DNA of 64,000 nucleotides from a virus (Duplodnaviria; Caudoviricetes): the IMG/VR virus record IMGVR_UViG_2541047295_000015, positions 1 to 64,000 of that record; one strand, written 5' to 3'. Below are positions 27,011 through 51,958 of this stretch, in pieces. The notes beneath the pieces were generated by a model, which was not told where the DNA came from, searched no databases, and saw nothing but the letters and a program-made list of their open reading frames with translations. Positions within the stretch are counted from its first letter, which is position 1. The number at the start of each line of letters is the position of its first letter. The translations under genes were made by a program, and so were the position numbers.

Positions 27011-27069
27011 AAATATTAAGACAGTTAATATACTGTCTTTTTTTATGTATTGAAAAAGGAGTTGGTTAA

Positions 27070-28542: not shown

Positions 28543-28800
28543 TAATAAAATAGCCCCTTTATATAGAAATATATAATTGAACTCAGAATATGCTGGAAAC
28601 TCCTTAGAGCCTTAATTAGTAAGTGTATTTGGAAACTTATACATCATCTGAAAATATTAAGGATTGGACAATCAGCAGAGATAGACCTAAGTTCAAAAAA
28701 AAGAATATGGTAAGCTCTCAACGACTACCAATGAGCATCCTAAATGGGTGATGGTATAGTCTATTCCCTTTTAAATATCGAGAAATCGAGGGTATAAAAG
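28543..28800 (+). ncRNA. Group I intron 1 in the tape measure gene (258 nt, no ORF)
   Basis: P1 ggU|ua...uaGcc with U-G wobble; P tgctggaaa, Q aatcagcag, R tcaacgacta, S ggtatagtct; terminal G at 28800. Confidence 0.9.
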
Positions 28801-28827
28801 AATAATTTTGCAATAACAACTGGCGAT
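28801..28827 (+). CDS. Tape measure protein, exon 2 (NNFAITTGD)
   Basis: 27 nt; completes the AGNNFAITT motif. Confidence 0.85.
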
Positions 28828-29132
28828 TAATTTTAGTCGCACTATATAGTAATATGTAGTTAAAAACTCCTTTAATTGCTGGGAACTCCTTAGAGCTAAC
28901 TAAACTACAACATAATTGGAAACGATAAATGTGAATGTTTAAAAATTAGTTGGATTGGACAATCAGCATCCAAGCTCCGTATGGGAGAAGGTTCAACGAC
29001 TATTATGTAGATTCAAGTGAATCGAAATGGGGAGCATCCTTAAAGGATGAAGATATAGTCTCGTCTTTATAGAGATATAAAGAAGTTCATAAGAGAACTG
29101 ATTAGGACTAACGAACCTAATTGAAGGTATCG
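28828..29132 (+). ncRNA. Group I intron 2 in the tape measure gene (305 nt, no ORF)
   Basis: P1 gcgaU|u...aGucgc; P aattgctggga, Q aatcagca, R ttcaacgacta, S gaagatatagtct; terminal G at 29132 (alternative in-frame G at 29126). Confidence 0.88.
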
Positions 29133-29273
29133 GTAGGAGCAGCGTTACAGCGAAGTGCGAGCATGTTATCATCAGCAGGTGTCTCTATGGAGGACTCTGT
29201 TGCATTGATAATTGGAGGAAATGAATCTGTACAAAATGCTGAAAAAGTAGGTACAGCACTCAAAACAATTGGT
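29133..29273 (+). CDS. Tape measure protein, exon 3 (VGAALQRSAS...KVGTALKTIG)
   Basis: 141 nt, 47 codons with no stop; typical tape measure core sequence. Confidence 0.88.
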
Positions 29274-29547
29274 TAATAAAATAGCCCCTTTATATAGTGA
29301 TATATAATTGAACTCAGAATATCAGGGAAAGTCCTTAGAGCTTTAATTACCAAGCATTAGAGAAATCAAAATGTGGCATTGCTAATCACAATGGTATGGT
29401 AATAAGATTAAAGATTGGATAATCCTGAGACACAGTCCTAAGTCAATTAATAAGGAAAGGTCGCAACGACTATCAATGAGCATCCTAAATGGATGATGGT
29501 ATAGTCTATTCCCATTTTTAAATATCTGGAAACAGAGGGTATTAAAG
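29274..29547 (+). ncRNA. Group I intron 3 in the tape measure gene (274 nt, no ORF), paralog of intron 1
   Basis: Same 5' end taataaaatagcccctttatatag as intron 1; P tcagggaaa / Q aatcctgag covary; R gcaacgacta, S ggtatagtct; terminal G at 29547. Confidence 0.9.
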
Positions 29548-34896: not shown

Positions 34897-35960
34897 AGGG
34901 TAAACTTCAAGGTTTTGGATTTCAATTTAGAGATGATGGTACAATAACTAACTACATTCAACAACTAGACAAGTTATTCCAAAGTAATGATAACTTTGAT
35001 GAAGCAAAAGAATTGGTTGATGCTTATTTAGATTTAATGATGGATAAAATTCCTGATGCCGAAAAAGAAATGGCTAAGTTAGATGCTACAATTAAAGCAG
35101 CATTAAAAGAAAAGTTAGAAACTACTAAAGAAATAGAAGATGAGATAACTAAAGTTTATGAAAAGCAAATTGAAGAACGTAAGAAACAGATAGACGATGA
35201 GCTTAAAAAACGTCTTGATGCACTTAATAAAGAAAAAGAAGCCTACAATAAAGCTAGAGATAAAGCAGATTATCAGCGTGATTATGATGATAAATCAAAA
35301 GAAATAGAGGAACTTCAAAAGAAATTAGATATTGCTGAAAGAGATAGCTCACTATCAGGACAAAAGAAAGTACAGGAATTAAGAAAAGAATTAGAAGAGG
35401 CTAAGAGAGCATTAGAAGATTTAGTTCAAGACCAGATTGATAAAGATGTAAATGATATGTATGATGATGAAAGTGATAGACTACAAGATGAAGCAGATAA
35501 AGCTAAAGAAGATTTGGATAATAAGTATACTAAAGAAGAATTAGCTAGATTAATCAAAGAAGCATTAAATACAGGATTATTTACAGATATAAATGGTGAG
35601 GTTCATGATTTACAACAAACATTGCTTGATTTTGCTGATAAGTATGGTGATGGATTAGGGGCTACAGGGGCTATTATAAAAAGTGAATTAGTTGGTAATC
35701 TTGAAATTGCTAAAAAAGTAATGGAGGATATGTTAGATATTCAAGATAAATTAGGTGTTGGTGAATATAGCAATTATTCAGTACCTAGAGGTCGTAGTTA
35801 TCAACCTCAACAATCTAATCAAAATCAATTTAATTACAATGCTCCATTAGTTAGTGTACAAGGTACTATGAATAGGGATATATTAAAAGAAGTAGAAAAA
35901 ATGATTAAAAAGTCTCAAGATGAACTTGCCAAAGAAATAGTAAGAAAAACTAAATATTAA
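34881..35960 (+). CDS. Tape measure protein C-terminal part in the -1 frame
   Basis: Frame open from 34860; KGKLQGFGFQFRDDGTITNY repeats KVLSDKGFKFNSDGNMTNY of the upstream frame; no clear RBS at 35013. Confidence 0.7.
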   Translation, partial: SQNEIKGKLQGFGFQFRDDGTITNYIQQLDKLFQSNDNFDEAKELVDAYLDLMMDKIPDAEKEMAKLDATIKAALKEKLETTKEIEDEITKVYEKQIEERKKQIDDELKKRLDALNKEKEAYNKARDKADYQRDYDDKSKEIEELQKKLDIAERDSSLSGQKKVQELRKELEEAKRALEDLVQDQIDKDVNDMYDDESDRLQDEADKAKEDLDNKYTKEELARLIKEALNTGLFTDINGEVHDLQQTLLDFADKYGDGLGATGAIIKSELVGNLEIAKKVMEDMLDIQDKLGVGEYSNYSVPRGRSYQPQQSNQNQFNYNAPLVSVQGTMNRDILKEVEKMIKKSQDELAKEIVRKTKY

Positions 35961-36013
35961 AATATTATGGATTTTTATTTTAAAAAAGTTATTTAATTAG
36001 AATAATGACAACA

Positions 36014-36043
36014 TTGACAGTTGTGACAATATTGGAGTATAAT
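36014..36043 (+). promoter_or_regulatory. SigA promoter for the antisense RNA
   Basis: TTGACA-18-TATAAT. Confidence 0.7.
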
Positions 36044-36049
36044 TATGAT

Positions 36050-36205
36050 ATAAATGATATAAAATTTATATCATAAAGACAAAAAGAGACTACAAACTAT
36101 TTGCAGTAGGGTGTAGTTTTTGAAGTTAACAATAAAAAAAATAATAGATTTATGTATTACTTTCAGAATCACTAGACCCTCCAGTCTGGTGATTCTTTAG
36201 TTTTC
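36050..36205 (+). ncRNA. Putative type I antitoxin RNA
   Basis: Follows a consensus promoter, has no ORF, ends in hairpin agaatcactagac/gtctggtgattct plus T-rich run; overlaps the 3' end of the toxin gene. Confidence 0.65.
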
Positions 36206-36311
36206 TAATAGATGCTTTCAAATTTAAGATTGCATCTATCAGCTTTGTCAAATGATTTATTATTCTCGTAATCATAATTATCATTATTAAAAATAAAACT
36301 AAGTACTCCAT
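36150..36311 (-). CDS. Putative type I toxin, 53 aa
   Basis: RBS aagggggtga; MEYLVLFLIMIIMITRIINHLTKLIDAILNLKASIRKLKNHQ...; extended -10 TGGTATAAT near 36387-36395. Confidence 0.7.
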   Translation of the reverse strand: MEYLVLFLIMIIMITRIINHLTKLIDAILNLKASIRKLKNHQTGGSSDSESNT

Positions 36312-36570
36312 AGTCTCACCCCCTTTCCTGGGGATTTTAACTAAAGAGCCATCACCCTAATAGTCTAAACTGTAGTCTCTAAAATCATTATACCATAATT
36401 TACCACGATGTTGAATTTAATATTATATTGACTACGGCAGTAGAATAAAGATATAATATAAAGAACAGAAAATTAAAAATATTTTACATAAAGATTAACT
36501 ACTCACTTTAAGCCACTTTAAACAAGTGGCTATTTTCTTGCACAAAAATTAATAAAGAAGGTGATAAAAT

Positions 36571-38244
36571 ATGGATTTTAATGTGAATCTCAAACAAATC
36601 CAAAGAGAGTATAATATAACCCTCCACAAAGTTAACAAAGAAATTCTAGGTGAAATTCCAATAGAATTTATAGATAGTTTAACTCGTAGCATTGATGGTA
36701 CAGATGAAATTCAATTTACCATACCAAAATTTATAACAAATCGCTTTTCATTCCAAAAAATAATAAATCCATTGTATTATGAAGTAAGTAATGAACGATT
36801 TATATGTGTAGATAATAAAGAGTATTTTGTAATAAAAGAAATAAAAGAAGATGGACATAAAAATAAAGTTATTAGAGCAACATCAGCAGAAGTTAAACTG
36901 GGTAAGATAAATTTAAACATTGAAGATATGGGACTACAGCTATTTACAGAAGATAAGGATGCTGGAATAATAAGTCTCAATGATTATATGAAAGAAGAAA
37001 CTGGATGGACTTTAGGTAATGTAGATGATTCAATAGGTTATGAAACTACTGATACAGGAGAAAAAAGAGAGAAAGTAAGGTGGCAAGAAAGTGTAGATAG
37101 TAATTGGCATGATTTTTTAATTAATGATATTAAAGAGGAATTTGGATGTGTAGTTCAGTTTGACACATATAACAAAAAAGTACACCTATATGATGTAGAT
37201 AGCTTTGGAGACAATATAGAATTAGTATTATCTTATGATAACTATATAAAATCACATGAAAAGACTAGAAATTCAGATGAAATAGTCACTAGAATGACTT
37301 TAGTTGGAAATGAAGAGATGGACATTATTGGAGCTACTGTAACAGGATATAAATATATTGAAAACTATTCATATTTCTTAGAAAATAGCGAAATGAGTAA
37401 AGATTTAATAACTGCAATACTTAAGTATAATGAGATGATTAAATTAAGAGAAGTTGAGTGGTTAAAATTAATAGATGAAAAGAATAAAAAGAAAAAAGAA
37501 TTACGAGACAATAAAAATAAACTCCAAATAATCTATTCTACCATCAATGCACTATATAGTATTAAAAAGACATATGAGACAAATAAGGATACTATTAATG
37601 CTGCCAAGGTAGCAGCAGATATAACTAAGAATAATGATGAAAAAGTAATACTTGAAGTAACTATAAAAAATTTAGAACAACAAGTACTGGAATTAGAAGA
37701 TAGTATAAAACAAATAAACATATTGTGTAAGAGAGAAACCTCAACTGATGAAAATGGACAATTAATCTTTAATGAAATATTACTAGAAGAATTAAAAGAA
37801 TTTATTTATTGTGATACTTATACGAATGATTCATTTTTGAAGGTTGAAGACTTAATTAAAACAGGAAAAAGAGAGCTAGAACTTAAGTGTAGACCAACTA
37901 TTGATTGGACAATAGACTCTGTGAACTTCTTAAGTAGAATTATCAACATGGAATTTAGACAACATTGGAATGGATCATTAAGTGTGGGTGACATAATTAT
38001 ATTCTATGATAGAGCAGAAGGCACTGAGGACATAATATATTTTGTTGGATATACACAAAACTTTAAAGATGGAAGTTTAAATTTGGATTTATCTAATAAG
38101 AAATTAAAGGAAGATAATACAAGAACTATTTCCGATTATTTAACTAAATCAAAACATACTATGGATTCAGTTAATAAGAAAAAGTACTTACTCAATAGAC
38201 AAAAATTCAATAGAATGAATGTCCCAGAAAGTGTGGTGTCCTAA
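36571..38244 (+). CDS. Tail-associated (Tal / prophage tail endopeptidase-like) protein
   Basis: Follows the tape measure gene; FDTYNKKV...LSYDNYIKS...EIVTRM...G pattern. Confidence 0.65.
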   Translation: MDFNVNLKQIQREYNITLHKVNKEILGEIPIEFIDSLTRSIDGTDEIQFTIPKFITNRFSFQKIINPLYYEVSNERFICVDNKEYFVIKEIKEDGHKNKVIRATSAEVKLGKINLNIEDMGLQLFTEDKDAGIISLNDYMKEETGWTLGNVDDSIGYETTDTGEKREKVRWQESVDSNWHDFLINDIKEEFGCVVQFDTYNKKVHLYDVDSFGDNIELVLSYDNYIKSHEKTRNSDEIVTRMTLVGNEEMDIIGATVTGYKYIENYSYFLENSEMSKDLITAILKYNEMIKLREVEWLKLIDEKNKKKKELRDNKNKLQIIYSTINALYSIKKTYETNKDTINAAKVAADITKNNDEKVILEVTIKNLEQQVLELEDSIKQINILCKRETSTDENGQLIFNEILLEELKEFIYCDTYTNDSFLKVEDLIKTGKRELELKCRPTIDWTIDSVNFLSRIINMEFRQHWNGSLSVGDIIIFYDRAEGTEDIIYFVGYTQNFKDGSLNLDLSNKKLKEDNTRTISDYLTKSKHTMDSVNKKKYLLNRQKFNRMNVPESVVS

Positions 38245-40360: not shown

Positions 40361-43300
40361 TTGAGAAATTATGAAATAAAAAATTATCCTTTAGTATTAG
40401 ATTTTAGTAACTATAGAATAAATAAAAGTCTCGTAGATTCATTTATTTATGATGAAAATGATACAAACACAGCAGTAATAACAGTAGAACTTAAAAATAA
40501 TGATAAATCAATTGATTTATCAGTTTATGATTACATAACTCTAAACATAAAAAAAAATGATGGAACAACAATTGATCAACAATGTAAGATCATAGATGAA
40601 TCTAAAGGAATAGTAGAAATAATATTTTCAAAACAAGCACTATTATGTTCAGGTCTAAACTCATTTCAAATAGCACTAATAAATGAAGAAAGTCAGATAT
40701 TCTCTCCAAAAGTTTTCTATAGAGTAGAAGAAGGCGTTTTAAATGATAGTGATATAGTAAGTTCAGATGAATACTCAGTTTTGATGATTCTTATATCTCA
40801 ATATAAAGATAGTTTAAAAGAACTGAAAGATTTAAAAATAAAAATAGAAAATCTTGAAATTACTATACTTAAAAATGAAGAATTAAGAGACTCAGCAGAA
40901 CAAGAAAGAATAGCCTCAGAAATTATTAGAAAAGATCAAGAAATTATTCGTCAAAATCAAGAAATAGAGAGACAAAAATCTATACAAGAAATGGAATCAG
41001 AAATTGATGATAAAATTACTGACATTCAATATGAATTTGATGAAAAAGCCCAACAAATAACTGATGATATCAATGAAACTAAAGAAAGTTTAATTGAAGA
41101 TATAACAAATACTAAAGATAATATAAATCAAGACATATTGACAACTAAAACTGATTTAATAAATTCAGTTAATTCTACCAAAGAAACTCTAGTTACAGAA
41201 GTAACAACAGTCAAAACTGACTTAACAAATTCATTTAATGAAACCAGAGATAATGTAATTGCTGATATTTCAACAACTAAAACTGATCTAATAAACTCAA
41301 TTAATTCTACTAAAGAAACTTTAACTACAGAAGTTACAACAGCCAAAACTGACTTAATTAATTCTGTAAATACATCTAAAGATACTATGGAAAATAAAGT
41401 ACAAGAAGCCATAGATGCGATTCCACCAAAAGACGAGTTGAAGGGTAAAGATGGACTTGGATTAGAGATAAAAGGTAGTGTAGATACTGTAGATCAGTTA
41501 CCAATAGACCCAACTATAAGCGATACTTATTTCGTTGGTTATGATCTATATATATATGATGGTGCTGAATGGAAAATAATAAAAGATTTAAGAGTTAAAG
41601 GAGATAAGGGTGATACTGGTTTAACAGGAAAAAGTATAGAGTTTATATGGGATAATACTCAGTTAGGTATTCGTCAAGAAGGATCAACTGAATATGTATA
41701 TGTAAATTTAAAAGGAGATACTGGAGAACAAGGATTATCTCCATATGATTTAGCAAAGTTAAATGGATTTGAAGGTACAGAATTAGAATGGTTAAATTCA
41801 TTAAAAGGATTGGACGGATTTACACCAACAATTGGAGGAAATGGTAATTGGTTTATTAATAATGTTGATACAGGACAATCCTCAATTGGGTTAAAAGGCG
41901 ATCAGGGAGATAAAGGTGATATTGGTATCACAGGAAAATCAGCTTATGATGTTGCTATAGAAAATGGATTTGAGGGAACAAAAGATGAATGGTTATTATC
42001 CTTAAAAGGTGAAGAAGGAGATACTCCATTAATAGGTGAAAATGGAAATTGGTTTATAAATGGAGAAGATACTGGTAAACAATCAAAAGGTGATAAGGGA
42101 GATATAGGAAGTGGTTTAGAAATAAAAGGATCTTTTGACACCATAAATGAATTACCATCAGAAGGAATAATTGGAGATGCTTATCTGGTACAACAGCACT
42201 TATATGTTTGGGACAAGATAAAGAAATGGGTGGATTGTGGTATAATTCAAGGCCCCCCTGGTAAAGATGGAGCTTCTACTTGGGATGACATATTAGACAA
42301 GCCAGAAACATTTAATCCTACAAAGCATACACACTTAATGAGTGATATAACAGGATTAAAATTGGATGCAGATACTGTCACATATAACAATAAAATTAGT
42401 AATTTAGATTCCATAAATGTTCAAAAAGCAATTGATGAATTAAAAGGGATTGTGGATAGTAAATCTGATTCTATTATGTATACCAAAATTATTGAGCAAA
42501 ATGAATGGAAACATACAAATGATTTGTACTCAATAGAAATTCCACATAATTTATCTTCTAAAAACTTATTTATTAGTATATTAAACAATGATACTAATAT
42601 AAATTTGATTTCTTCTTATAAGATAATTGATATAGATACAATTGAGATATACAATGACGAAGCAATTAATGCCACTGTTGTTGTTTTAGGAAATAGCTCT
42701 AATGTATCATATATACCAGTAATTGGAGACAATGGAAATTGGTTTATAAACAATGTTGATACAAAAAAAAGTTCTATTGGAATTACTGGTGAAAAAGGTG
42801 ATAAAGGGGAACAAGGAAATATAGGATTAACAGGTGATAATGGTAAATCAGCCTATGAAATTGCACTTGAAGATGGATTTGTTGGTTCTAAAGATGAATG
42901 GTTACTATCTTTAAAAGGTGATGAAGGTATAACACCGATGATTGGTGATAATGGTAACTGGTTTCTTGGAAATATTGATACAGGAAAAGTATCAAAGGGT
43001 GAAAAAGGTGATGTTGGAACTGGATTAGAAATAAAAGGAGCATTTGATACTGTAGAAGAGCTTCCTCAAGAAGGCAATACTGGTGATGCTTACTTAATTC
43101 AAAGACATCTATATATCTGGGATAACATAAAAAAATGGGTAGATTGTGGCGTAATTCAAGGTGAAAAAGGTGAAAATGGAACATCTAACTGGGAAAATAT
43201 ATTAAATAAACCAGACAAATTTAATCCAAGCAAGCATATTCATGCTATGGATGATATAGAAGGACTAAAGTTAAGTGCAGATACTGTTACATATAATAAT

Positions 43301-44674
43301 GAAACAAGTAATTTAAAAGCTGTAAATTTACAAAAAGCTATAGATGAATTAAAAAGTGAAATAGATACTAAATCTGAGTTAATGATTCATACTCAAAATA
43401 TAACATTAGATAATTGGTTAGAAAAAGATGATTTATATTATATAGAAATAAATCATAATCTCTCTTCTAAGAACTTATTTATTAGTATCTTAAATATTGA
43501 TACCAATATAAATCTAATAACTTCATATAAAATTATCAACGATAATACCATTAATATATATAATGATACGCCTGTTAATGCAAATGTTTTAGTAATATCA
43601 GACAATATAAACATAAATTATTTGCCAACTATAGGTGAGAATGGTAACTGGCATATCAATAATATTGATACAGGAAAAAGCTCAATTGGTAAATCAGGTC
43701 TAAAAGGTGATAAGGGAGACATAGGTTTAACTGGTGCTACTGGCAAATCTGGTATAACTCCAACGATTGGAAATAATGGTAATTGGTTTCTTGGTGATAC
43801 TGATACTGGTAAAAGTTCAATAGGGAAAACTGGTTCTAAGGGTGACACTGGTAAATCAGCCTATGAAATTGCACTTGAAGATGGATTTGTTGGTTCTAAA
43901 GAAGATTGGTTATTATCCTTAAAAGGCAATAAAGGAGACAAGGGTGATGTTGGCAATGAAGGAAAAACAGCGTATGATGTTGCACTTGAGGAGGGATTTG
44001 TTGGAACAAAAGAAGATTGGCTCAACTCATTAAAAGGAAATAAAGGTGATATTGGTATAACTGGTACAAATGGAGATTCAGCATATGAAATTGCATTAAA
44101 AAATGGATTTTCAGGTAATTCTGAAGAATGGTTAATTTCACTAAAAGGTGATAAGGGCGATATTGGTGTAACTGGTAAATCTGCCTATGAGATTGCATCT
44201 GAAAATGGATTTTTAGGTAATATTACAGAATGGCTAAGTTCTTTAAAAGGTAATAAAGGAGACAAAGGTGATTCTGGAGTATCAAATTGGAATGATATTA
44301 GTGGAAAACCTAGTTCTTTTAATCCCTCTTCTCATAATCATGGATGTACTTCTAACAAGTCTCCCACTAGCGGTTATATTTCATTAGGTTCAGATTTAGG
44401 AGGATTAATAATAGAATGGACTCAAATTAAATTATCATTCACAGGTGCTGATACCAAAAGAGGTGGTGGAAATTTACCTATAGCATTTCCTAATGCATGT
44501 ATTGGTTTATACAGTGCTATATCTTCAGCTGGAGATAATGCATGCTTTTCTCATGGAGTTGCAAAAGAAAGTGGCCTAACATCTACAAAGTTTGGTTATC
44601 ATGTTAAAGCAGCAGGTTCAGTCGCTGATATAGAAGGATCACTTACTTTATATATACTTGCAATTGGGTATTAG
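40361..44674 (+). CDS. BppU-like baseplate / tail fibre protein with collagen-like repeats
   Basis: N-terminal BppU-type domain; KGDKGD, GKSAY.IA...GF.G...EWL.SL and IG.NGNWF repeats; C-terminal GLIIEW...PIAFPNAC...AIGY fibre tip. Confidence 0.8.
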   Translation: MRNYEIKNYPLVLDFSNYRINKSLVDSFIYDENDTNTAVITVELKNNDKSIDLSVYDYITLNIKKNDGTTIDQQCKIIDESKGIVEIIFSKQALLCSGLNSFQIALINEESQIFSPKVFYRVEEGVLNDSDIVSSDEYSVLMILISQYKDSLKELKDLKIKIENLEITILKNEELRDSAEQERIASEIIRKDQEIIRQNQEIERQKSIQEMESEIDDKITDIQYEFDEKAQQITDDINETKESLIEDITNTKDNINQDILTTKTDLINSVNSTKETLVTEVTTVKTDLTNSFNETRDNVIADISTTKTDLINSINSTKETLTTEVTTAKTDLINSVNTSKDTMENKVQEAIDAIPPKDELKGKDGLGLEIKGSVDTVDQLPIDPTISDTYFVGYDLYIYDGAEWKIIKDLRVKGDKGDTGLTGKSIEFIWDNTQLGIRQEGSTEYVYVNLKGDTGEQGLSPYDLAKLNGFEGTELEWLNSLKGLDGFTPTIGGNGNWFINNVDTGQSSIGLKGDQGDKGDIGITGKSAYDVAIENGFEGTKDEWLLSLKGEEGDTPLIGENGNWFINGEDTGKQSKGDKGDIGSGLEIKGSFDTINELPSEGIIGDAYLVQQHLYVWDKIKKWVDCGIIQGPPGKDGASTWDDILDKPETFNPTKHTHLMSDITGLKLDADTVTYNNKISNLDSINVQKAIDELKGIVDSKSDSIMYTKIIEQNEWKHTNDLYSIEIPHNLSSKNLFISILNNDTNINLISSYKIIDIDTIEIYNDEAINATVVVLGNSSNVSYIPVIGDNGNWFINNVDTKKSSIGITGEKGDKGEQGNIGLTGDNGKSAYEIALEDGFVGSKDEWLLSLKGDEGITPMIGDNGNWFLGNIDTGKVSKGEKGDVGTGLEIKGAFDTVEELPQEGNTGDAYLIQRHLYIWDNIKKWVDCGVIQGEKGENGTSNWENILNKPDKFNPSKHIHAMDDIEGLKLSADTVTYNNETSNLKAVNLQKAIDELKSEIDTKSELMIHTQNITLDNWLEKDDLYYIEINHNLSSKNLFISILNIDTNINLITSYKIINDNTINIYNDTPVNANVLVISDNININYLPTIGENGNWHINNIDTGKSSIGKSGLKGDKGDIGLTGATGKSGITPTIGNNGNWFLGDTDTGKSSIGKTGSKGDTGKSAYEIALEDGFVGSKEDWLLSLKGNKGDKGDVGNEGKTAYDVALEEGFVGTKEDWLNSLKGNKGDIGITGTNGDSAYEIALKNGFSGNSEEWLISLKGDKGDIGVTGKSAYEIASENGFLGNITEWLSSLKGNKGDKGDSGVSNWNDISGKPSSFNPSSHNHGCTSNKSPTSGYISLGSDLGGLIIEWTQIKLSFTGADTKRGGGNLPIAFPNACIGLYSAISSAGDNACFSHGVAKESGLTSTKFGYHVKAAGSVADIEGSLTLYILAIGY
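41824..43700 (+). repeat. Internal ~900-bp (about 300 aa) tandem duplication in the fibre gene
   Basis: Units start near 41824, 42716 and 43624 (partial): PxIGxNGNWF...GLEIKG.FDT...HNLSSKNLFISILN. Confidence 0.8.
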
Positions 44675-44702
44675 AATCTATAACTTCTAGAAGGAGGTAA
44701 AA

Positions 44703-45014
44703 ATGAGAAAGATATTTAAGATGGGTCTGAAAAAAGATTTAAAATCATTCAATGGATTTTATATAGAAGACATCCATAAAAATAATATACCTAAGTCTTA
44801 TATAAATATTGCAGAAGATCTTTGGAGTTATTTATTAGAACTAGGTGATTTTAAATTTATAGGAGATTATAAAACAAAAAAAGATTTATATACTGTTCAA
44901 GAAAAAGATGAGTTTGAAAAAATTATTCCAGATTCTTATTCTGAAAATAACATAGCCTTAGAAGATAGAATTTCTGCAATTGAACAAGCAATATTAGCCA
45001 TATTATTAAAATAA
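44703..45014 (+). CDS. Tail fibre assembly-like protein
   Basis: 103 aa after the fibre gene; ends LEDRISAIEQAI. Confidence 0.55.
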   Translation: MRKIFKMGLKKDLKSFNGFYIEDIHKNNIPKSYINIAEDLWSYLLELGDFKFIGDYKTKKDLYTVQEKDEFEKIIPDSYSENNIALEDRISAIEQAILAILLK

Positions 45015-45033
45015 TTGACTGGAGGTGAGTTAA

Positions 45034-45198
45034 ATGAACTCATTATATAACTTTCTACTTAATATGTGGAAAATTGGTAATATAGATGAAAAATATATAA
45101 ACACTATGTCATCTAATAAAATTATCACATCAGAGGAAAGAGATATGATAATCTCTACATCTAAAATAAAATGTAAAGGAGTAGATAATATTGGATAG
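45034..45198 (+). CDS. XkdX-like small protein
   Basis: ggaggtga RBS; MNSLYNFLLNMW...IITSEE..MII. Confidence 0.55.
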   Translation: MNSLYNFLLNMWKIGNIDEKYINTMSSNKIITSEERDMIISTSKIKCKGVDNIG

Positions 45199-46327
45199 TA
45201 ATAAAATTTTAAAGTTACAGGCTGAAGATATAAAATATAATAATGTTATTAGTGGATTAAATTCCACTAATACTAAAGAAGCAATAGATGAATTAAGGAA
45301 TTTAATAAGGCAACCTGATTCTATCTATAGTGCAACATTAGACATTGATTTAAATGACTGGAAATTAAAAGATGATTTTTATTATAAATCTATAAAGCAT
45401 AACTTAGATTCTAAATGTTTATTGGTAAGCATAATAGAAAAAAACACACAAAATAGTTTATTGTGTTCATATAAAATAGTTGACAATGACACAATTGAAA
45501 TATTTAATGAAATTGTTATTAATGCAACTATAAATATAGTAGGTATCAACACAGATATAACACCTATTCCAAGTATAGGTGAAAATGGTAACTGGTTTAT
45601 AAATGGAGAAGATACTGGTAAGTCATCTAAAGGAAATAAAGGTGATATTGGCAATGAAGGAAAATCTGCATATGAAACATGGAGAGGTATATCTCAAAAT
45701 AAAGATAAAACTGTCCAAGAATTTATAGAGAGTCTAAAAGGGAGTAAAGGCGATACTGGGGTAACACCTTCAATCGGAAAAAATGGCAATTGGTTTATAG
45801 GTGAAAATGATACTGGTAAACCATCTAGGGGAGAAATTGGAGATTTAAATATTGACACAAACTTTAGCGAACTAGAAACTGAAAGTAAAAAAATTCTTGA
45901 AGCCATAAATGAAATTAATAAAAAAGCTGTAGATTCTAATGGAGATATAACTGGAGATATAGCTGTTGAATTAGCTATATTAAAAAATAACTATGCTATA
46001 CTTCTAAATAAAATGTTAGATTTTTCAATAGAAATGGATTTAGAACAAAATGCTACAATAGATGAAGCTGGATACTGGTATGATACATTAAAAGATAATA
46101 AAAATATAATAGCTATGAATGATTTAAAATTAGATACAATAGGAAAATGTATAAGGGGTATTTATGGAAGTGTAACATTTCGAAATATTGAGATTCCTTT
46201 TATATCCAATAAACTTAGATATATTCATGAATTAAATAATAACTCAATTGATAATATTGTAAGTCAAACTTATCCTAAAGATTCTACCCAAATTAATTTA
46301 GGAAAATATAAATATAAAATAAGATAA
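45191..46327 (+). CDS. Fibre adaptor protein with collagen-like repeats
   Basis: Shares the HNL..K.L..SI domain and NGNWF repeats with the 40361 gene; LETESKKILEAINEI; DEAGYWYDTL. Confidence 0.65.
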   Translation: MDSNKILKLQAEDIKYNNVISGLNSTNTKEAIDELRNLIRQPDSIYSATLDIDLNDWKLKDDFYYKSIKHNLDSKCLLVSIIEKNTQNSLLCSYKIVDNDTIEIFNEIVINATINIVGINTDITPIPSIGENGNWFINGEDTGKSSKGNKGDIGNEGKSAYETWRGISQNKDKTVQEFIESLKGSKGDTGVTPSIGKNGNWFIGENDTGKPSRGEIGDLNIDTNFSELETESKKILEAINEINKKAVDSNGDITGDIAVELAILKNNYAILLNKMLDFSIEMDLEQNATIDEAGYWYDTLKDNKNIIAMNDLKLDTIGKCIRGIYGSVTFRNIEIPFISNKLRYIHELNNNSIDNIVSQTYPKDSTQINLGKYKYKIR

Positions 46328-46340
46328 AGAGGTGTTTTTA

Positions 46341-49300
46341 TTGATAAAAAAAACAAAATTATTTCAAAGAGGAAAATATTTTAATAATGATAGCATAAAT
46401 TTAAATAAGTTTGATAGAACTTATGATTCATTTAATTTTGTAGGTTTTTTTACTGGATATGCAGATGTTAGTTTTGCATTAGACAAAAATAATAATGCTT
46501 ATGCTTGTGGAAACAATACTGAGTACATGTTAGGTTTAGGTAAAGATACTAAAACTGTTAAAACATTTACAAAACTCCCAGTAAGTAATGTCAAAATGAT
46601 AGCTGTTGGTACAAATCATGCCTTATTATTAACTAATGATGGGTTTGTCTATGCAGCAGGTAGAAATGACAAAAACCAATTCGGAATTGGTAAACTTCCA
46701 GATACAATATATTATGAGTTTACTAAATTATCTCTACAAAATGTAAAATATATAGCTTGCGGAGAAGGTTCTTCTTATTATATAGATAATGATAATTTGG
46801 CATATTCATGTGGCAATAATAATTATGGTCAATTAGGTTTAGGAACAAATGCTGATATAAAAGATACACTTAATAGAGATACATTTACAAAAATTAATAT
46901 AGATAATGTTAAATCGATTTATACATCTTTATATAGTGCATATATAATTAAAAATGATAGTACATGCTATTCTTGTGGATTTAATGGATCTGGACAACTT
47001 GGTTTAGGTGATAATAATAATAGAGATATATTTACAAAAATTAATATAGACAATGTAAAAAAAATAAGTGTTGGTTCAAATCATACAGCTTTATTAAAAG
47101 ATAATAATGAACTATATTTTACTGGATATAATTCTAATGGAGAATATGGAGATAATACTATTATAAGTAAAAATATATTTACTCTATCTAACGAAAAAAA
47201 TATACTAGATGTAAATTGTTCATATAATCATACTTTTATTCTAAAAAATGATGGAAGTTTATATAGTGCTGGTTACAATAAATATGGAGAATCTTTAATA
47301 GATAATAAATACGATATTATAAATACAATAACATACACTAAAGTAACAGATAATATAAAAAGTATCTATAGTAGTAAACAACATTCATTTCTAATAGATA
47401 AAGATAATAATATTCTAGTTGGTGGGTTAAATAACTTTAATCAATTAGGATGCTTTTTTAATGAAATGATTATATATTCTCCTACTAAGTTTAATTTTCA
47501 TAATACAGATAATATAAAAAATATATTTAAATATAAAGATAAAATAATGTTAACAAAAGATAGCTGTGAAATACAAAATGTAAAACTATATGATAATTTT
47601 CATGACTATAAACAGATTCTTTTAACAGATTATACTATGTTTATATTATTAAATAACGGAAATTTATACGCATGTGGATATAATATTAATGGACAACTTG
47701 GATTAGGAGATACAAAAAATAGGTCAATATTCTGTAAAGTTCCTGTTGATAATGTAAAAGAAGTTTACTCTGATAGGCTTGGATATACTACATTTATAAT
47801 GAAAAATGATGGTTCTATATGGTCTTGTGGATTAAATACTAGTGGTCAATTAGGGGTAGGAGATAAACTTAATAAAAGCTTATTTCAATTTGTTAATGTT
47901 AGTAATATACAACAAATATGCATCGAATCTAATTATACAATGATTTTAACAACTGAAGGAACTCTTTTAGGCAGTGGTAATAATTCATATGTTTTAAAGA
48001 ATAATAATGTTTCTATTTTTACAAATCAAATGGATAATTTAAGTATAAAAATAAAAAAAATCGCATCTTATGATAATAATTTTTATTTAATTGAAGATTC
48101 TACTCATTATTTATATGTTAAAGGTTTAAATAATTATTATGAACTAGGACTTGATAATACAAGTACTTATTCATCTTTTGTTAAAGTATCTAATTTATAT
48201 TATAGTAATAGTAGCCTGCCTTGTGTAATAAAAGATGTTATTCCAGTATATAAAGGCTGTGTAGTAATTAATATGAATGATAGAATGTTTACAACTGGTT
48301 ATAGTTATATGGATTACACAGCATCAAATTCTGATAATACTTCTTCTGTAAAATGTTACCGTTTTGGAACTAAAAGAGCTTACAATGCTGTTGTTGATTT
48401 TTCAACAAGATTCTTTGAAGACTATAATAGATTAAACCAACAATATGATTCAAAATTTTTATCTAATAATGCAATAGGATTAATAAAAGCAAAAGATTCA
48501 AATAGTTATTGGGGATGTTTTTTTGAAGCGGATTACTATGACCCTCAGTTTAATGCTGACAATATAGCTGTTTTAAACTATTTCATATTGTATTCAGATA
48601 GTAGTGGTCTTAAAATTCGTCCTAATCAATATAATAAACTCAATTATGGTTATATAGAATCATATCCTATAAAAAATGTAAAAGATATTATAAGTACACA
48701 AACTAGTTCTATAATAATAGATAGCAATAACAACATATATTGTATTGGAATAAATTATTATAATAAATTTGGAATAGGAAACACAGGACATCATGCTTAT
48801 ACAAACAGATTAGTTAATATAACAGACCAATATAATTCTTATATTACTATGGATGAGATAAAAAAAATAGAAACATCTGACTATGCAACATTTATATTAA
48901 AAAAAGATGGTTCTCTATTTTCATGTGGCGATAATGAATATGGTCAATTAGGTTTAGGAGATACAATTAATAAAAATGAATTTACACAAGTTCCGATAGA
49001 TGATGTAAAAGATATAATTATTAGTAGTGCTACTTCTTTTGTAATAAAAAATGATAATACTATATATTCATGTGGTAAAAATGATAAAGGTCAGTTAGGG
49101 TTAAATGATACTAACAATAGAAATATATTTACTGAAATTGATACTAGTTTTAATACTTCTCCCATAAAAAAAATATCATGTGCACCTAGTAATAGTTTCT
49201 TATTATTTGAAAATGGATTAGTATACTGCTGTGGAGATAATACTCATGGTCAATTAGGAATTGGTACTTTTGGAAATAACGAAAATAAATTGAAATTTGA

Positions 49301-51521
49301 TTTAATTAATATTAATGATATAAGAGATCTTTATTGTAGTTCTAGTATCTTAGCAGTTATAAACAATAATAATGAATTGTATATGTGTGGTGATAATACA
49401 TATGGACAAATTGGAATGGGTACTCAAACTAGACAACTTACACTTATTAAAAAAGGGCAAAATATAAAAGAAGTGATAATTGCAGGATTAAATACTTTTA
49501 TAATTTCATATCAAAATACTTGTAGTGTTACTGGTAAAAATAGTAATAAATGTTTAGGATTAGATATGAATTCTACTATTACAACTTTTAATGAATTATC
49601 ATTGCAAAATGTAAAAAAAATAGTTTGTAATAGCAACACAACTTTATTTTTAACACTAGATAATAAATTATATTCTGCTGGTCATAAAAATTATGGTTCA
49701 ACTCATGCTAATTCTACTTATACTTTAATAAAAGAAAATGTAAAAGATATTTTTAATGATAGTGAATGCTGTTATTATATAGATATGAATAACAATTTAT
49801 TTGGTAGTGGTACTAATTCATTTGGGCAATTAGGACAATGTAGTACTGGTGTAATAGCTTCATATATTAAAATAAGAAGTAATGTTAAAATGTTATATAC
49901 TAATGCGTATTCTATTTATATTCAAAAAAATACAAATGATTTTGAAGTTTGTGGTTCTAACACCAAAGGACAATTAGGAATAGAAAATACCTATGAAAGC
50001 AGATATAACAATTATAATTATTGTACAGAACCTGTCCCTTTACCTTTTGTAATGGGAGATATAATAGATATTAAAAAAGAATATAATTATCTATTAATTA
50101 ATAATAAAGTAATAGTCCCTACAGATACAGATATAAATTATTCAAATATATTTGGTGATACATATATAGAATATGAATACATATCATTACCATTTGATAA
50201 TATAAAAGAAGTAGCCATATCTAGAACACATGTAATAGTTCTATTAGAAAATGGAGAAGTCTATGGATGTGGTTCTAATGAATATGGAGAATTATTTAAA
50301 GAATTAACAGTAAAAAGGTATGACAACTTTACTAAATTAGATATAACTCACATTAAACATATAGCATGTGGAAATAACTTTACATATTATATAGATTCAA
50401 TAGATAATAGTTTAAAATGTATAGGAAAAAATACTAATTATGAATTAGGATTAGGACATAATGAAACTGTAAACACAGTTCAAACTATATCTTCTGTTAC
50501 TAATTTAAAAGACATAAAGATAACAAATAATTACATTCTTGCTCTAACAGAAAATAATATTTTATTTGCACAAGGATTAAACATTAATTGCTGTTTTGGA
50601 TTAGGATTAGATACAAAAGATGTAGTATACAAATTATTTATAAAAATAGCAGATAATATAAAAGAATTAACACAAATAGATGATAATAATATATTTTATA
50701 TAGATAATAATAACAATTTACAAGTTGCAGGTAAAAACACCCCAGCTTTTCATATAGATGATGCATTATATTACATATCTAGTTTTTCACCAATTCCATT
50801 AGATGAAATAGATAATATAGTTGATATGTTATCAACTGATGATACTTTATATATAATATCAAGAATTTCATCAGAAGATACTAATATAGAATTAGTAGGT
50901 AAAACATTAAATTCTGTTAGGGTAAATATACAAGACGTAAACAATGATATAACAAAAGTAGAAATGATTATAAATGGAGAATCCATAGAAACACTATCTA
51001 AAACAAGTGTTGATTCAATTATATTCAATATACCAAAAGATAAATTAAAAATAGGTAGCAATAGAATAATGTTTAAAGCCTATTCTAAATATGAAAACCT
51101 ATATGATACTATGTTTATATATAAAGAATCAACAGGTAATGAGAATATTATTGGAAGTTCAATTTTAATAAACAATAAAATTTATAAAATATCAGATGTT
51201 ATAGATCAAGATATAGATGACATCATAATCATATTAGATAGAGGTTTAGAAGATGAATTACAATCTGAAGATACCATATCTATATTATTGAATAACATAA
51301 AAGTTCAAGTAAGAACAAATAAAACTGGACTTTTTAAAGATATCTTATTAAAAGAAATCAAAAAAGTTGATTCTGGATACCAAGAAATCTATGAATTCGA
51401 AGAATCAAATATGTCTATGGTACAACCAAGGATAATAGTTGAAAAAGGTGATAAATGGACGTCTATAAAAAGGCCTTCAATATTACTAAGCTATGATCCA
51501 TCACAATTCCAACAAAACTAA
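46341..51521 (+). CDS. Giant RCC1-repeat receptor-binding protein, diffocin RBP-like
   Basis: Many CG.N..GQLGLG RCC1 repeats; likely TTG start after agaggtg. Confidence 0.8.
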   Translation: MIKKTKLFQRGKYFNNDSINLNKFDRTYDSFNFVGFFTGYADVSFALDKNNNAYACGNNTEYMLGLGKDTKTVKTFTKLPVSNVKMIAVGTNHALLLTNDGFVYAAGRNDKNQFGIGKLPDTIYYEFTKLSLQNVKYIACGEGSSYYIDNDNLAYSCGNNNYGQLGLGTNADIKDTLNRDTFTKINIDNVKSIYTSLYSAYIIKNDSTCYSCGFNGSGQLGLGDNNNRDIFTKINIDNVKKISVGSNHTALLKDNNELYFTGYNSNGEYGDNTIISKNIFTLSNEKNILDVNCSYNHTFILKNDGSLYSAGYNKYGESLIDNKYDIINTITYTKVTDNIKSIYSSKQHSFLIDKDNNILVGGLNNFNQLGCFFNEMIIYSPTKFNFHNTDNIKNIFKYKDKIMLTKDSCEIQNVKLYDNFHDYKQILLTDYTMFILLNNGNLYACGYNINGQLGLGDTKNRSIFCKVPVDNVKEVYSDRLGYTTFIMKNDGSIWSCGLNTSGQLGVGDKLNKSLFQFVNVSNIQQICIESNYTMILTTEGTLLGSGNNSYVLKNNNVSIFTNQMDNLSIKIKKIASYDNNFYLIEDSTHYLYVKGLNNYYELGLDNTSTYSSFVKVSNLYYSNSSLPCVIKDVIPVYKGCVVINMNDRMFTTGYSYMDYTASNSDNTSSVKCYRFGTKRAYNAVVDFSTRFFEDYNRLNQQYDSKFLSNNAIGLIKAKDSNSYWGCFFEADYYDPQFNADNIAVLNYFILYSDSSGLKIRPNQYNKLNYGYIESYPIKNVKDIISTQTSSIIIDSNNNIYCIGINYYNKFGIGNTGHHAYTNRLVNITDQYNSYITMDEIKKIETSDYATFILKKDGSLFSCGDNEYGQLGLGDTINKNEFTQVPIDDVKDIIISSATSFVIKNDNTIYSCGKNDKGQLGLNDTNNRNIFTEIDTSFNTSPIKKISCAPSNSFLLFENGLVYCCGDNTHGQLGIGTFGNNENKLKFDLININDIRDLYCSSSILAVINNNNELYMCGDNTYGQIGMGTQTRQLTLIKKGQNIKEVIIAGLNTFIISYQNTCSVTGKNSNKCLGLDMNSTITTFNELSLQNVKKIVCNSNTTLFLTLDNKLYSAGHKNYGSTHANSTYTLIKENVKDIFNDSECCYYIDMNNNLFGSGTNSFGQLGQCSTGVIASYIKIRSNVKMLYTNAYSIYIQKNTNDFEVCGSNTKGQLGIENTYESRYNNYNYCTEPVPLPFVMGDIIDIKKEYNYLLINNKVIVPTDTDINYSNIFGDTYIEYEYISLPFDNIKEVAISRTHVIVLLENGEVYGCGSNEYGELFKELTVKRYDNFTKLDITHIKHIACGNNFTYYIDSIDNSLKCIGKNTNYELGLGHNETVNTVQTISSVTNLKDIKITNNYILALTENNILFAQGLNINCCFGLGLDTKDVVYKLFIKIADNIKELTQIDDNNIFYIDNNNNLQVAGKNTPAFHIDDALYYISSFSPIPLDEIDNIVDMLSTDDTLYIISRISSEDTNIELVGKTLNSVRVNIQDVNNDITKVEMIINGESIETLSKTSVDSIIFNIPKDKLKIGSNRIMFKAYSKYENLYDTMFIYKESTGNENIIGSSILINNKIYKISDVIDQDIDDIIIILDRGLEDELQSEDTISILLNNIKVQVRTNKTGLFKDILLKEIKKVDSGYQEIYEFEESNMSMVQPRIIVEKGDKWTSIKRPSILLSYDPSQFQQN

Positions 51522-51540
51522 ATAATAATAGGAGGTAAGA

Positions 51541-51879
51541 ATGTTAAAAATAGACAAAAGAAAAATACATGATATTAAAAATAGAAAAGAAAATGACATT
51601 AAGTTTAATATTATAGATACAAGTCAAATAACTCAAAACAATGACATTACAGATTTAATGTTGGCAACTGCTGAAATATGTGAAATGGTATTGGATAGCC
51701 AATCAAAACCATCTACCATGTCATTAAAAAATATAAAATTAAATGAAGGAGGAAATAGTATGGCAGCAATTTATGTAGGATTAATAGAAAGAGGTTTAAA
51801 AACAATTGACCAAGTACCTGTAAAATACAGAGAAGAGGTAAGAAAAATGTGTGAGGCACTAGAAATTCCGTTATCATAG
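51541..51879 (+). CDS. CD1375-like small chaperone
   Basis: C-terminal MAAIYVGLIERGLKTIDQVP with its own internal ggagga RBS. Confidence 0.6.
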   Translation: MLKIDKRKIHDIKNRKENDIKFNIIDTSQITQNNDITDLMLATAEICEMVLDSQSKPSTMSLKNIKLNEGGNSMAAIYVGLIERGLKTIDQVPVKYREEVRKMCEALEIPLS

Positions 51880-51958
51880 AACTTTAAGAGTTCTTTTTTT
51901 GTGCTCAAAATAGAGAGTTACATTAGTAACTCTCTAACTTAAAGAAGAAGGTGATAAA

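What the first reader, a model, noticed from the sequence alone, without database searches (positions are those of the whole stretch)
45191..51879. Siphophage carrying a diffocin (R-type tailocin)-like receptor-binding module
Seen: adaptor gene, then a ~1,726-aa RCC1-repeat protein, then a CD1375-like chaperone. From memory, the N-terminus (KLFQRGKYFN...FD..Y....FV.FFTG...YACG.NT...LGLGKD) and size match the C. difficile diffocin receptor-binding protein, and the gene order mirrors that locus. The adaptor N-terminus is instead built from this phage's own fibre domains, and no sheath gene is present. Inference: a contractile bacteriocin's targeting module has been exchanged with a non-contractile phage tail.
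Basis: partly seen in the sequence, partly recalled or inferred. Interest (0 to 1): 0.75.

Follow-up and report, generated by a model that had tools for sequence, protein, structure and literature searches.

The report
Diffocin-type receptor-binding unit in siphophage
A large Clostridioides difficile phage with a non-contractile tail carries the same three-gene host-recognition unit (adaptor end, giant propeller protein, small helper) as the bacterium's contractile bacteriocin diffocin; this sharing was already reported for this phage group in 2018, so only the free-standing adaptor is new.

Summary
Window 45191-51879 encodes a 378-aa adaptor, a ~1,726-aa RCC1 beta-propeller protein and a 112-aa small protein. 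All three are homologous to the diffocin genes RtbL (C-terminal half only), RtbM/CD1374 and CD1375. The RCC1 protein is 40-41% identical to RtbM over its full length. The window is a phiCD211-like ~130-kb siphophage/phage-plasmid, and its contig has no sheath gene.

The idea is not new. Ramirez-Vargas et al. 2018 (PMC5786514) reported diffocin-RBP-like proteins in the tail modules of these big phages.

This work adds four points:
- This lineage is sister to the strain-630-type diffocin RBPs rather than to other phage RBPs. Holding all chromosomal RBPs as one clade is disfavoured (p-AU 0.024).
- The same central segment (aa ~600-750) is hypervariable in both the phage and the diffocin lineages.
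- The unit is an accessory cassette. The closest backbone relative lacks it.
- Other big phages fuse the RtbL-like domain to a BppU baseplate anchor. Here it sits on a free-standing 378-aa adaptor, whose length is conserved in three protein clusters. How it attaches to the tail is unknown.

Function as a virion receptor-binding protein is inferred, not shown. Interest is modest.

The parts
40361..44674 (+). 1437-aa long tail fibre. It has a BppU_N baseplate anchor, a repeat-rich shaft and its own Gp53-like C-terminal tip. This is context: it carries the anchor that other big phages fuse to the RtbL-like adaptor domain.
   Evidence: Pfam BppU_N 31-149 and Gp53-like_C 1347-1437. Nucleotide homology to other big phages stops at ~40902-41045, inside this gene. 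Its internal segments 666-885 and 963-1158 resemble the adaptor N-terminus.
44703..45014 (+). 103-aa ORF after the long fibre. No family match; possibly a fibre accessory protein.
   Evidence: ORF list. No Pfam or PHROG hit.
45034..45198 (+). 54-aa ORF with its own RBS. Its stop overlaps the adaptor start.
   Evidence: Read from the sequence. No significant family.
45191..45862 (+). Adaptor residues 1-224. These are phage-type fibre modules: a small beta module (~aa 28-122) and Gly-rich repeats. There is no BppU_N anchor.
   Evidence: 42-48% identity to internal segments of the 1437-aa fibre, and 37% to the N-terminus of the 775-aa fibre. PHROG tail-fibre families. 86-89% conserved among the free-standing 378-aa homologues. 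RBS AAAGGAG lies 9 nt before TTG 45191.
45863..46327 (+). Adaptor residues 225-378. This is the RtbL/CD1373 C-terminal-like domain, the presumed RBP-holding end.
   Evidence: 45-48% identity without gaps to the C-terminal half of diffocin RtbL from four genomes, against 38-44% to fused phage adaptors. phrog_10153 and phrog_13479 C-terminal matches. Only 63-64% conserved among the 378-aa homologues, so it diverges together with the RBP.
46341..51521 (+). RCC1-repeat receptor-binding protein, an RtbM/CD1374 homologue. The ORF is open from GTG 46332 (1729 aa). The likely start is TTG 46341 (1726 aa).
   Evidence: (phrog_7220 over 1-1731 of 1734). An AF2 model of aa 400-900 shows RCC1-type propeller blades, and Foldseek finds UVR8/RCC1 at E=2e-20.
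48132..48581 (+). Hypervariable segment of the RBP (aa ~601-750, numbered from 46332). It is the candidate specificity determinant.
   Evidence: 18-26% mismatches to the 94%-identical relative here, against 0-12% in the other 50-aa bins. In the strain-630-type diffocin clade the same bins differ by 39-55%, against <=6% outside aa 451-800. Identity to diffocin RBPs is lowest here. AF2 pLDDT is 21-29 for aa 657-753.
51541..51879 (+). 112-aa CD1375-like small protein, a putative fibre assembly chaperone.
   Evidence: 40-42% identity over the full length to the 117-aa gene after rtbM in three diffocin loci. 77-86% identity to the equivalent gene of other big phages and of the C21 prophage. phrog_7546 full length. 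RBS GGAGG.
41045..51227 (.). Variable cassette of ~10.2 kb, relative to the shared backbone of phiCD211-like phages.
   Evidence: blastn against six related phages or prophages. Homology ends at 40902-41045 and resumes at 51060-51234. The closest backbone relative, pCD1602_4, has no RCC1 gene at all.

Best explanation
Genes 45191-51879 are one of several receptor-binding units of a phiCD211-like big C. difficile siphophage/phage-plasmid.

The 1,726-aa protein is a multi-propeller RCC1-type receptor-binding protein of the same family as the diffocin RBP RtbM (CD630_13740). It is held by the RtbL-like C-terminal domain of the 378-aa adaptor. The 112-aa CD1375-like protein probably helps it fold or assemble.

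The central hypervariable segment (aa ~600-750) most likely sets which S-layer (SlpA) type is recognised. This is by analogy with diffocins, whose RBP sets the killing spectrum.

The unit is a mobile cassette shared between R-type diffocin loci and siphophage tails, and it has been exchanged between them more than once. This lineage is the sister of the strain-630-type diffocin RBPs.

Shown: homology, colinearity, gene order, cassette boundaries, the variability pattern and the tree. Inferred: incorporation into virions, adaptor-RBP contact, the chaperone role and the SlpA target.
For: - Full-length homology of all three genes to real diffocin loci, and to the cluster that contains the strain-630 protein.
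- RCC1 propeller content.
- Position in a siphophage tail module after the tape measure and minor tail proteins, with no sheath on the contig.
- The same unit sits at the same place in phiCD211, LIBA6276, ES-S phages, a 132-kb plasmid-like contig of a sister species, and a second prophage of the same genome.
- Tree: the window, its 94% relative and a 49% relative, which occur only on contigs <=142 kb, are sister (SH-aLRT 99) to the strain-630-type chromosomal RBPs. A single chromosomal clade is disfavoured at p-AU 0.024.
- The variability hot spot is shared by the phage and diffocin lineages.
- The adaptor C-domain diverges with the RBP (63-64%) while its N part stays at 86-89%.
- Literature: the diffocin RBP sets the killing spectrum and is held by the baseplate attachment protein RtbL (PMC4453579). 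SlpA is the receptor of diffocins, myophages and siphophages (PMC10100898). Diffocin-like RBPs occur in big phages (PMC5786514). AF3 predicts three propellers in RtbM (PMC13324602).
Against: - No experimental evidence shows that the protein is in virions or binds cells.
- The adaptor lacks the BppU_N anchor found in every other phage version examined, so its attachment to the tail is unexplained.
- The phage has at least four other fibre-like genes that could be the main RBP.
- The closest backbone relative does without the unit.
- The small protein has no recognised chaperone family.
- The tree is a quick search with a midpoint root, and the tested group was named after seeing the tree.
Confidence: 0.8

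Rival explanations
1. Orphaned cassette. A recombination put a different tip on the BppU-anchored fibre. It left the RtbL-like adaptor remnant, the RBP and the chaperone without any link to the baseplate, so the unit is expressed but is not a working part of the tail, or is on its way to decay.
For: The adaptor has no BppU_N, whereas phiCD211, LIBA6276, the G002 plasmid and the C21 prophage all have a 622-696-aa fused form. The cassette boundary lies just after the BppU_N domain of the 1437-aa fibre. The closest backbone relative has no RCC1 unit.
Against: All three ORFs are intact and have good RBSs. The free-standing adaptor keeps exactly 378 aa in three clusters at 77-98% identity, with a strongly conserved N part (86-89%). 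That fits, but does not prove, co-location of the two genes. The hot-spot pattern in the RBP looks like ongoing diversifying use. The 775-aa fibre, conserved in phiCD211, also starts with a related module and has no BppU_N.
Confidence: 0.08
2. The RCC1 protein is a virion protein but not the host-range-determining RBP. It would be an accessory adhesin, for example for reversible first contact or a second surface protein, while another fibre (1437, 580, 728 or 775 aa) makes the decisive contact.
For: There are five fibre-like genes in a row, three of them followed by ~110-aa small genes. The review PMC13324602 raises the same two-RBP question for myophages that carry an extra propeller protein. 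pCD1602_4 functions, presumably, with one fibre of another type.
Against: In diffocins the homologous protein alone sets the killing spectrum (PMC4453579). The same segment is hypervariable in phage and diffocin lineages.
Confidence: 0.1
3. The resemblance is only generic RCC1-repeat similarity, with no specific relation to the diffocin RBP.
For: Many unrelated jumbo-phage and bacterial proteins hit through their RCC1 repeats.
Against: Those hits cover 20-80% at 21-29% identity. The diffocin RBPs align end to end (99% coverage, 40-41%), including the non-repeat N-terminus and the C-terminal ~260 aa. The flanking adaptor domain and the small protein are homologous as well.
Confidence: 0.01

Closest known systems
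Diffocin receptor-binding unit RtbL-RtbM-RtbN (CD630_13730-13750; Gebhart 2012/2015, PMC4453579)
   Same: Same gene order. The RBP is colinear over its full length (40-41% identity) with the same N-terminal motif, RCC1 propellers and C-terminal domains. The adaptor C-domain is 45-48% identical to the RtbL C-half. The small downstream protein is 40-42% identical. The hypervariable segment lies at the same place.
   Different: It sits in a siphophage tail module, not a sheath/tube locus. The adaptor's N-terminal half is unrelated to the RtbL N-terminal baseplate-binding half (5-6% identity, mostly gaps). No killing or binding data exist.
RBPs of big plasmid-like C. difficile siphophages: phiCD211/phiCDIF1296T, phiCD5763, phiCD2955, LIBA phages (Ramirez-Vargas 2018, PMC5786514)
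   Same: Same phage backbone, with 70-96% nucleotide identity in the tail genes. The unit has the same position and the same three-part logic. The chaperone is 77-79% identical.
   Different: The RBP is only 31-34% identical, which is more distant than the diffocin RBPs are. In those phages the RtbL-like domain is the C-terminus of a 692-696-aa BppU_N fibre. Here it is a free-standing 378-aa protein, and the BppU_N fibre has grown to 1437 aa with its own tip.
Second RCC1 unit in a smaller sipho-prophage of the same genome (G000 contig C21)
   Same: A fused 622/648-aa adaptor, a 1522-aa RCC1 protein and a 108-aa small protein. The small protein is 86% identical to the window's.
   Different: The RBP is ~30% identical and lacks the first ~260 residues' equivalent. 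The adaptor has BppU_N.
Branched or multi-RBP adsorption devices of other phages, such as BppU/BppA/BppL baseplates of lactococcal P335 phages and adaptor-linked tailspikes of G7C/CBA120-like phages (from general knowledge, not tested here)
   Same: Several RBP genes in a row, with adaptors whose N-terminal modules recur in the other fibres.
   Different: No sequence relation was tested beyond BppU_N. Branching here is only a hypothesis.

Membership tests
Diffocin RBP family (RtbM / CD630_13740) | Full-length colinear sequence homology to CD630_13740-type proteins | tested here: met
   40% identity, 99% coverage, E=0 to cluster P0018, which holds the strain-630 protein. 40.5-40.7% identity over 5-1723 against 1-1718 of RtbM from two diffocin loci. 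Homology holds in every 100-aa bin except the variable 601-800 stretch.
Diffocin RBP family (RtbM / CD630_13740) | Multiple RCC1/WD40-like beta-propellers (three predicted by AF3 for RtbM, PMC13324602) | tested here: met
   Pfam WD40_RLD in 8 stretches and RCC1_2 in 13 stretches. A loose hand-made blade-like pattern matched at 21 sites, many ~50 aa apart. AF2 of aa 400-900 gives propeller blades, and Foldseek finds UVR8/RCC1 at E=2e-20. The whole protein was not modelled, so the exact number of propellers was not counted.
Diffocin RBP family (RtbM / CD630_13740) | Preceded by a baseplate attachment protein whose C-terminal part is RBP-specific (RtbL) | tested here: met
   Adaptor aa 225-378 is 45-48% identical, without gaps, to the RtbL C-half. 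The N-half is not RtbL-like.
Diffocin RBP family (RtbM / CD630_13740) | Followed by the small CD1375-like gene | tested here: met
   40-42% identity over the full length to the 117-aa protein of three diffocin loci.
Diffocin (R-type phage tail-like bacteriocin) locus | Contractile sheath, tube and baseplate genes with no capsid genes | tested here: not met
   No Phage_sheath_1 hit on contig C28. The siphophage tape measure and minor tail proteins lie upstream. The backbone is phiCD211-like. The unit belongs to the RBP family but is not part of a diffocin.
Diffocin RBP family (RtbM / CD630_13740) | Determines target spectrum by binding the S-layer protein SlpA | not testable with these tools
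   There is only indirect support: a shared hypervariable segment and literature on diffocins and phages.
phiCD211-like big-phage RBP cassette (PMC5786514) | RCC1 RBP in the tail module of a ~130-kb plasmid-like siphophage | tested here: met
   Members of the window's own RBP cluster lie on contigs of 112-123 kb.
phiCD211-like big-phage RBP cassette (PMC5786514) | RtbL-like domain fused to the BppU_N fibre directly upstream of the RBP | tested here: not met
   phiCD211 692 aa, LIBA6276 691 aa, G002 plasmid 696 aa and C21 622/648 aa are all fused. In the window a 378-aa protein without BppU_N is separated from the 1437-aa BppU_N fibre by two small ORFs.

The most novel reading that the evidence does not exclude
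The free-standing 378-aa adaptor may be a plug-in connector. Its conserved N-terminal module recurs inside the 1437-aa fibre and at the start of the 775-aa fibre. That module could dock it onto the long fibre or the baseplate, giving a branched, multi-receptor tail tip. In this form the diffocin-type RBP unit would be portable between contractile and non-contractile machines without touching the baseplate anchor.
Probability: 0.3. Interest if true: 0.55.

Novelty: new member of a known kind. Interest (0 to 1): 0.3.

Why it matters
C. difficile phages and diffocins are both being developed as precision antibacterials, and their host range is set by RBPs that read the variable S-layer. Three results here are useful for understanding host range and how tail modules are exchanged across tail types:
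- The same RBP family serves both a contractile bacteriocin and non-contractile phages.
- One ~150-aa segment carries most of the variation in both.
- The RBP-holding domain can sit on very different anchors: the RtbL N-half, a BppU fibre, or a free-standing adaptor.

The basic fact has been in the literature since 2018, so the gain is one of detail, not of kind.

Tried and rejected
- AF2 of the adaptor with a 12-row alignment gave mean pLDDT 45. That is too poor for a fold search, as expected for a fibre that probably needs to oligomerise, so it gave no clue to the docking mode.
- Pfam on the 54-, 103-, 110-, 111-, 112- and 117-aa small proteins gave only sub-threshold noise. The 'chaperone' label therefore rests on position and on homology to CD1375.
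- Rfam at gathering threshold over 27000-37000 found nothing.
- The IMG/VR scan with the RBP found no relative. PLSDB plasmids hold only the 31-34% type.
Co-location is suggested only by matching contig counts and longest-contig lengths, 122961 and 21118.
- Garneau 2018 (PMC5772226) is not held. One literature search was wasted on generic RCC1 hits.
- GC content gives no direction of transfer: 0.238 for the window RBP, 0.283 for diffocin rtbM and 0.266-0.277 for other phage RBPs.
- The terminator scan did not flag the weak A/T-rich hairpin plus T-run that can be read right after the chaperone stop.
- The careful ML search did not finish in the time allowed, so the quick IQ-TREE result was used.
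- Rejected: generic RCC1 similarity only.
- Rejected: origin from the present host's diffocin. That locus has no RBP gene.


Full report
**What is there.** The window is all + strand, about 27% GC. It is a phiCD211/phiCDIF1296T-like large C. difficile siphophage or phage-plasmid. Nucleotide identity in the tail genes is 70-96% to pCD1602_4, ES-S-0173-01, phiCD211, AR1086-1 and LIBA phages.

The tail module reads as follows:
- Tape measure in three ORFs: 27070-28545, 29554-34896 and 35013-35960.
- A 557-aa minor tail protein and a 645-aa tail protein.
- A 1437-aa fibre with BppU_N and a Gp53-like C-terminal tip (40361-44674).
- ORFs of 103 aa and 54 aa.
- The 378-aa adaptor (45191-46327), the RCC1 protein (46332/46341-51521) and a 112-aa protein (51541-51879).
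- Three more fibre genes (580, 728 and 775 aa), then the lysis genes.

No sheath gene lies on this contig. The genome's four sheath hits are on other contigs.

**Check of the observation.** A search of the eight genomes of the genus found full-length matches in several chromosomes. I fetched three of them. They show the diffocin order (sheath 354 aa, tube 142 aa, TMP about 800 aa, LysM 140 aa, hub 509-535 aa, 108, 142, 350, 232, 327/328, 1725/1774, 117 aa) and no capsid genes.

BLASTP gave:
- RCC1 protein against the 1725-aa RtbM: 40.5-40.7% identity over 5-1723 against 1-1718.
- Adaptor residues 228-378 against RtbL residues 175-327: 44-48%.
- The 112-aa protein against the 117-aa protein: 40-42% over the full length.

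The 1743-aa cluster that contains the strain-630 protein (CD630_13740) matches at 40% identity and 99% coverage. Binned identity shows homology along the whole length, not just in the repeats.

The adaptor's first ~220 residues match two internal segments of the phage's own 1437-aa fibre at 42-48%.

**Already known.** Gebhart 2015 stated that no phage then published had a homologue of the natural diffocin RBP (PMC4453579). Ramirez-Vargas et al. 2018 then reported that proteins similar to CD630_13740 and CDR20291_1218 occur in the tail modules of phiCD5763, phiCD2955, phiCD211/phiCDIF1296T and relatives. They proposed these proteins as RBPs (PMC5786514).

A 2026 review gives an AF3 model of RtbM with three propeller domains (PMC13324602). 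PHROGs already has a full-length family, phrog_7220. It is misleadingly filed under nucleotide metabolism. The general finding is therefore not new.

**What this locus adds.**

1. Phylogeny.
- The nearest relatives of the window's RBP are a 94% cluster and a 49% cluster. Both are seen only on contigs of up to 142 kb, consistent with phage-plasmids.
- Next come the strain-630-type chromosomal RBPs (40-42%). Other big-phage RBPs follow at 31-34%.
- In a quick IQ-TREE tree the window clade is sister to the 630-type diffocin clade (SH-aLRT 99). The R20291-type diffocin RBPs and phiCD211-type phage RBPs branch next to them. The LIBA-type, G002-plasmid and C21-prophage RBPs form another group.
- Holding all chromosomal RBPs together costs 20.1 lnL, p-AU 0.024.
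- This is moderate support for more than one exchange between diffocin loci and siphophages. The direction is unresolved, and GC content is uninformative.

2. A shared hot spot.
- Between the window and its 94% relative, mismatches rise to 18-26% in aa 601-750, against 0-12% in the other 50-aa bins.
- Within the 630-type diffocin clade the same bins differ by 39-55%, against 6% or less outside aa 451-800.
- AF2 of aa 400-900 models propeller blades on both sides (pLDDT up to 93) and an unmodelled ~100-aa stretch at aa 657-753. Foldseek confirms the RCC1/UVR8 fold.
- I infer that this segment sets receptor specificity.

3. Cassette nature.
- Backbone homology to six relatives stops at 40902-41045, just after the BppU_N domain, and resumes at 51060-51234, the last ~100 codons of the RBP.
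- The small protein is 77-86% identical to those of other big phages, although the RBPs are only ~30% identical.
- The closest backbone relative, pCD1602_4, has no RCC1 gene. It has a single 1182-aa fibre, a 110-aa protein and a 408-aa protein before the endolysin.

4. A free-standing adaptor.
- In phiCD211 (692 aa), LIBA6276, the G002 132-kb plasmid (696 aa) and the C21 prophage (622/648 aa), the RtbL-like domain is the C-terminus of a BppU_N fibre directly upstream of the RBP.
- Here the BppU_N fibre has its own tip. The RtbL-like domain is on a separate 378-aa protein with its own RBS.
- This is not an obvious remnant. Proteins of exactly 378 aa exist in three clusters at 98, 78 and 77% identity.
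- In those homologues the N part is 86-89% conserved and the C-domain 63-64%. That is the pattern expected if the N part fits a conserved phage partner and the C part co-varies with the RBP.
- The N-terminal module also opens the 775-aa fibre (37% over 79 aa). That fibre likewise lacks BppU_N and is conserved in phiCD211.
- How the adaptor joins the tail is unknown. The AF2 model was too poor to help.

**Mechanism proposed.** The adaptor C-domain holds the RBP N-terminus, as RtbL holds RtbM in diffocin (role taken from PMC4453579). The 112-aa protein assists assembly. This is inferred from position and from homology to the diffocin gene, which is itself only putatively a chaperone. The RBP's central variable segment contacts the S-layer, since SlpA is the receptor of diffocins, myophages and siphophages (PMC10100898). 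The unit works beside the other fibres of the array. All of these functional steps are inferred.

**Rivals.**
- An orphaned cassette. This is unlikely given intact ORFs, RBSs and the conserved adaptor.
- An accessory adhesin rather than the decisive RBP. This is possible.
- Mere repeat similarity. This is refuted.

**Verdict.** The locus is a new, diffocin-proximal member with an unusual split adaptor. Interest is about 0.3.

Earlier notes of this scan on the same genome had already flagged shared docking domains and the fibre cassette array. I tested only the adaptor-related part of those notes.

Noticed in passing
G000 contig C49 (locus L031, 4261-14735): The host's own diffocin-like locus has sheath 354 aa, tube 142 aa, TMP 783 aa, ..., 349, 205 and 270 aa. 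It ends with a myophage-type PtsL/RtbL-like 270-aa protein. No RBP or small downstream gene lies before the conserved flanking gene, which is 98.7% identical to the flank in another species. This looks like an RBP-less or degenerate diffocin.
   Followed up: partly
G000 contig C21 (loci L009/L010): A second, smaller sipho-prophage in the same genome carries its own RCC1 unit. It has a fused BppU_N adaptor (622/648 aa), an 86-aa ORF, a 1522-aa RCC1 protein, and a 108-aa protein 86% identical to the window's 112-aa protein.
   Followed up: partly
CP069348.1 (pCD1602_4; loci L036, L043): The closest backbone relative (86-96% nt identity over the tape measure to BppU_N) has no RCC1 gene. It has only one 1182-aa fibre, a 110-aa protein and a 408-aa protein before the endolysin. 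The window has five fibre genes. The fibre region is therefore a variable cassette array.
   Followed up: partly
window 27070-35960: The tape measure is read in three ORFs (491, 1780 and 315 aa) that all hit tape-measure PHROGs. The 1780-aa and 315-aa ORFs cover positions 1-1683 and 1727-2053 of phrog_10871.
   Followed up: partly
window 44703-45198: Two small ORFs (103 aa and 54 aa, each with an RBS) lie between the long fibre and the adaptor. The 54-aa ORF's stop overlaps the adaptor's TTG start. Neither matches a family.
   Followed up: partly
window 51878-51935: Right after the 112-aa gene there is a weak A/T-rich hairpin (AGAACT..AGTTCT) with a T-run, followed by a 10-bp inverted repeat (AGAGAGTTAC..GTAACTCTCT). 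The consensus terminator scan did not flag either.
   Followed up: no
window 46341-51521: The RBP gene has a lower GC content (0.238) than its neighbours (0.26-0.30), than diffocin rtbM (0.283) and than other phage RCC1 genes (0.266-0.277).
   Followed up: partly
phrog_7220 / public annotations: This RBP family is annotated in PHROGs and GenBank as 'regulator of chromosome condensation', 'beta-lactamase-inhibitor protein II' or 'DNA, RNA and nucleotide metabolism'. These names hide its tail and receptor-binding role.
   Followed up: no
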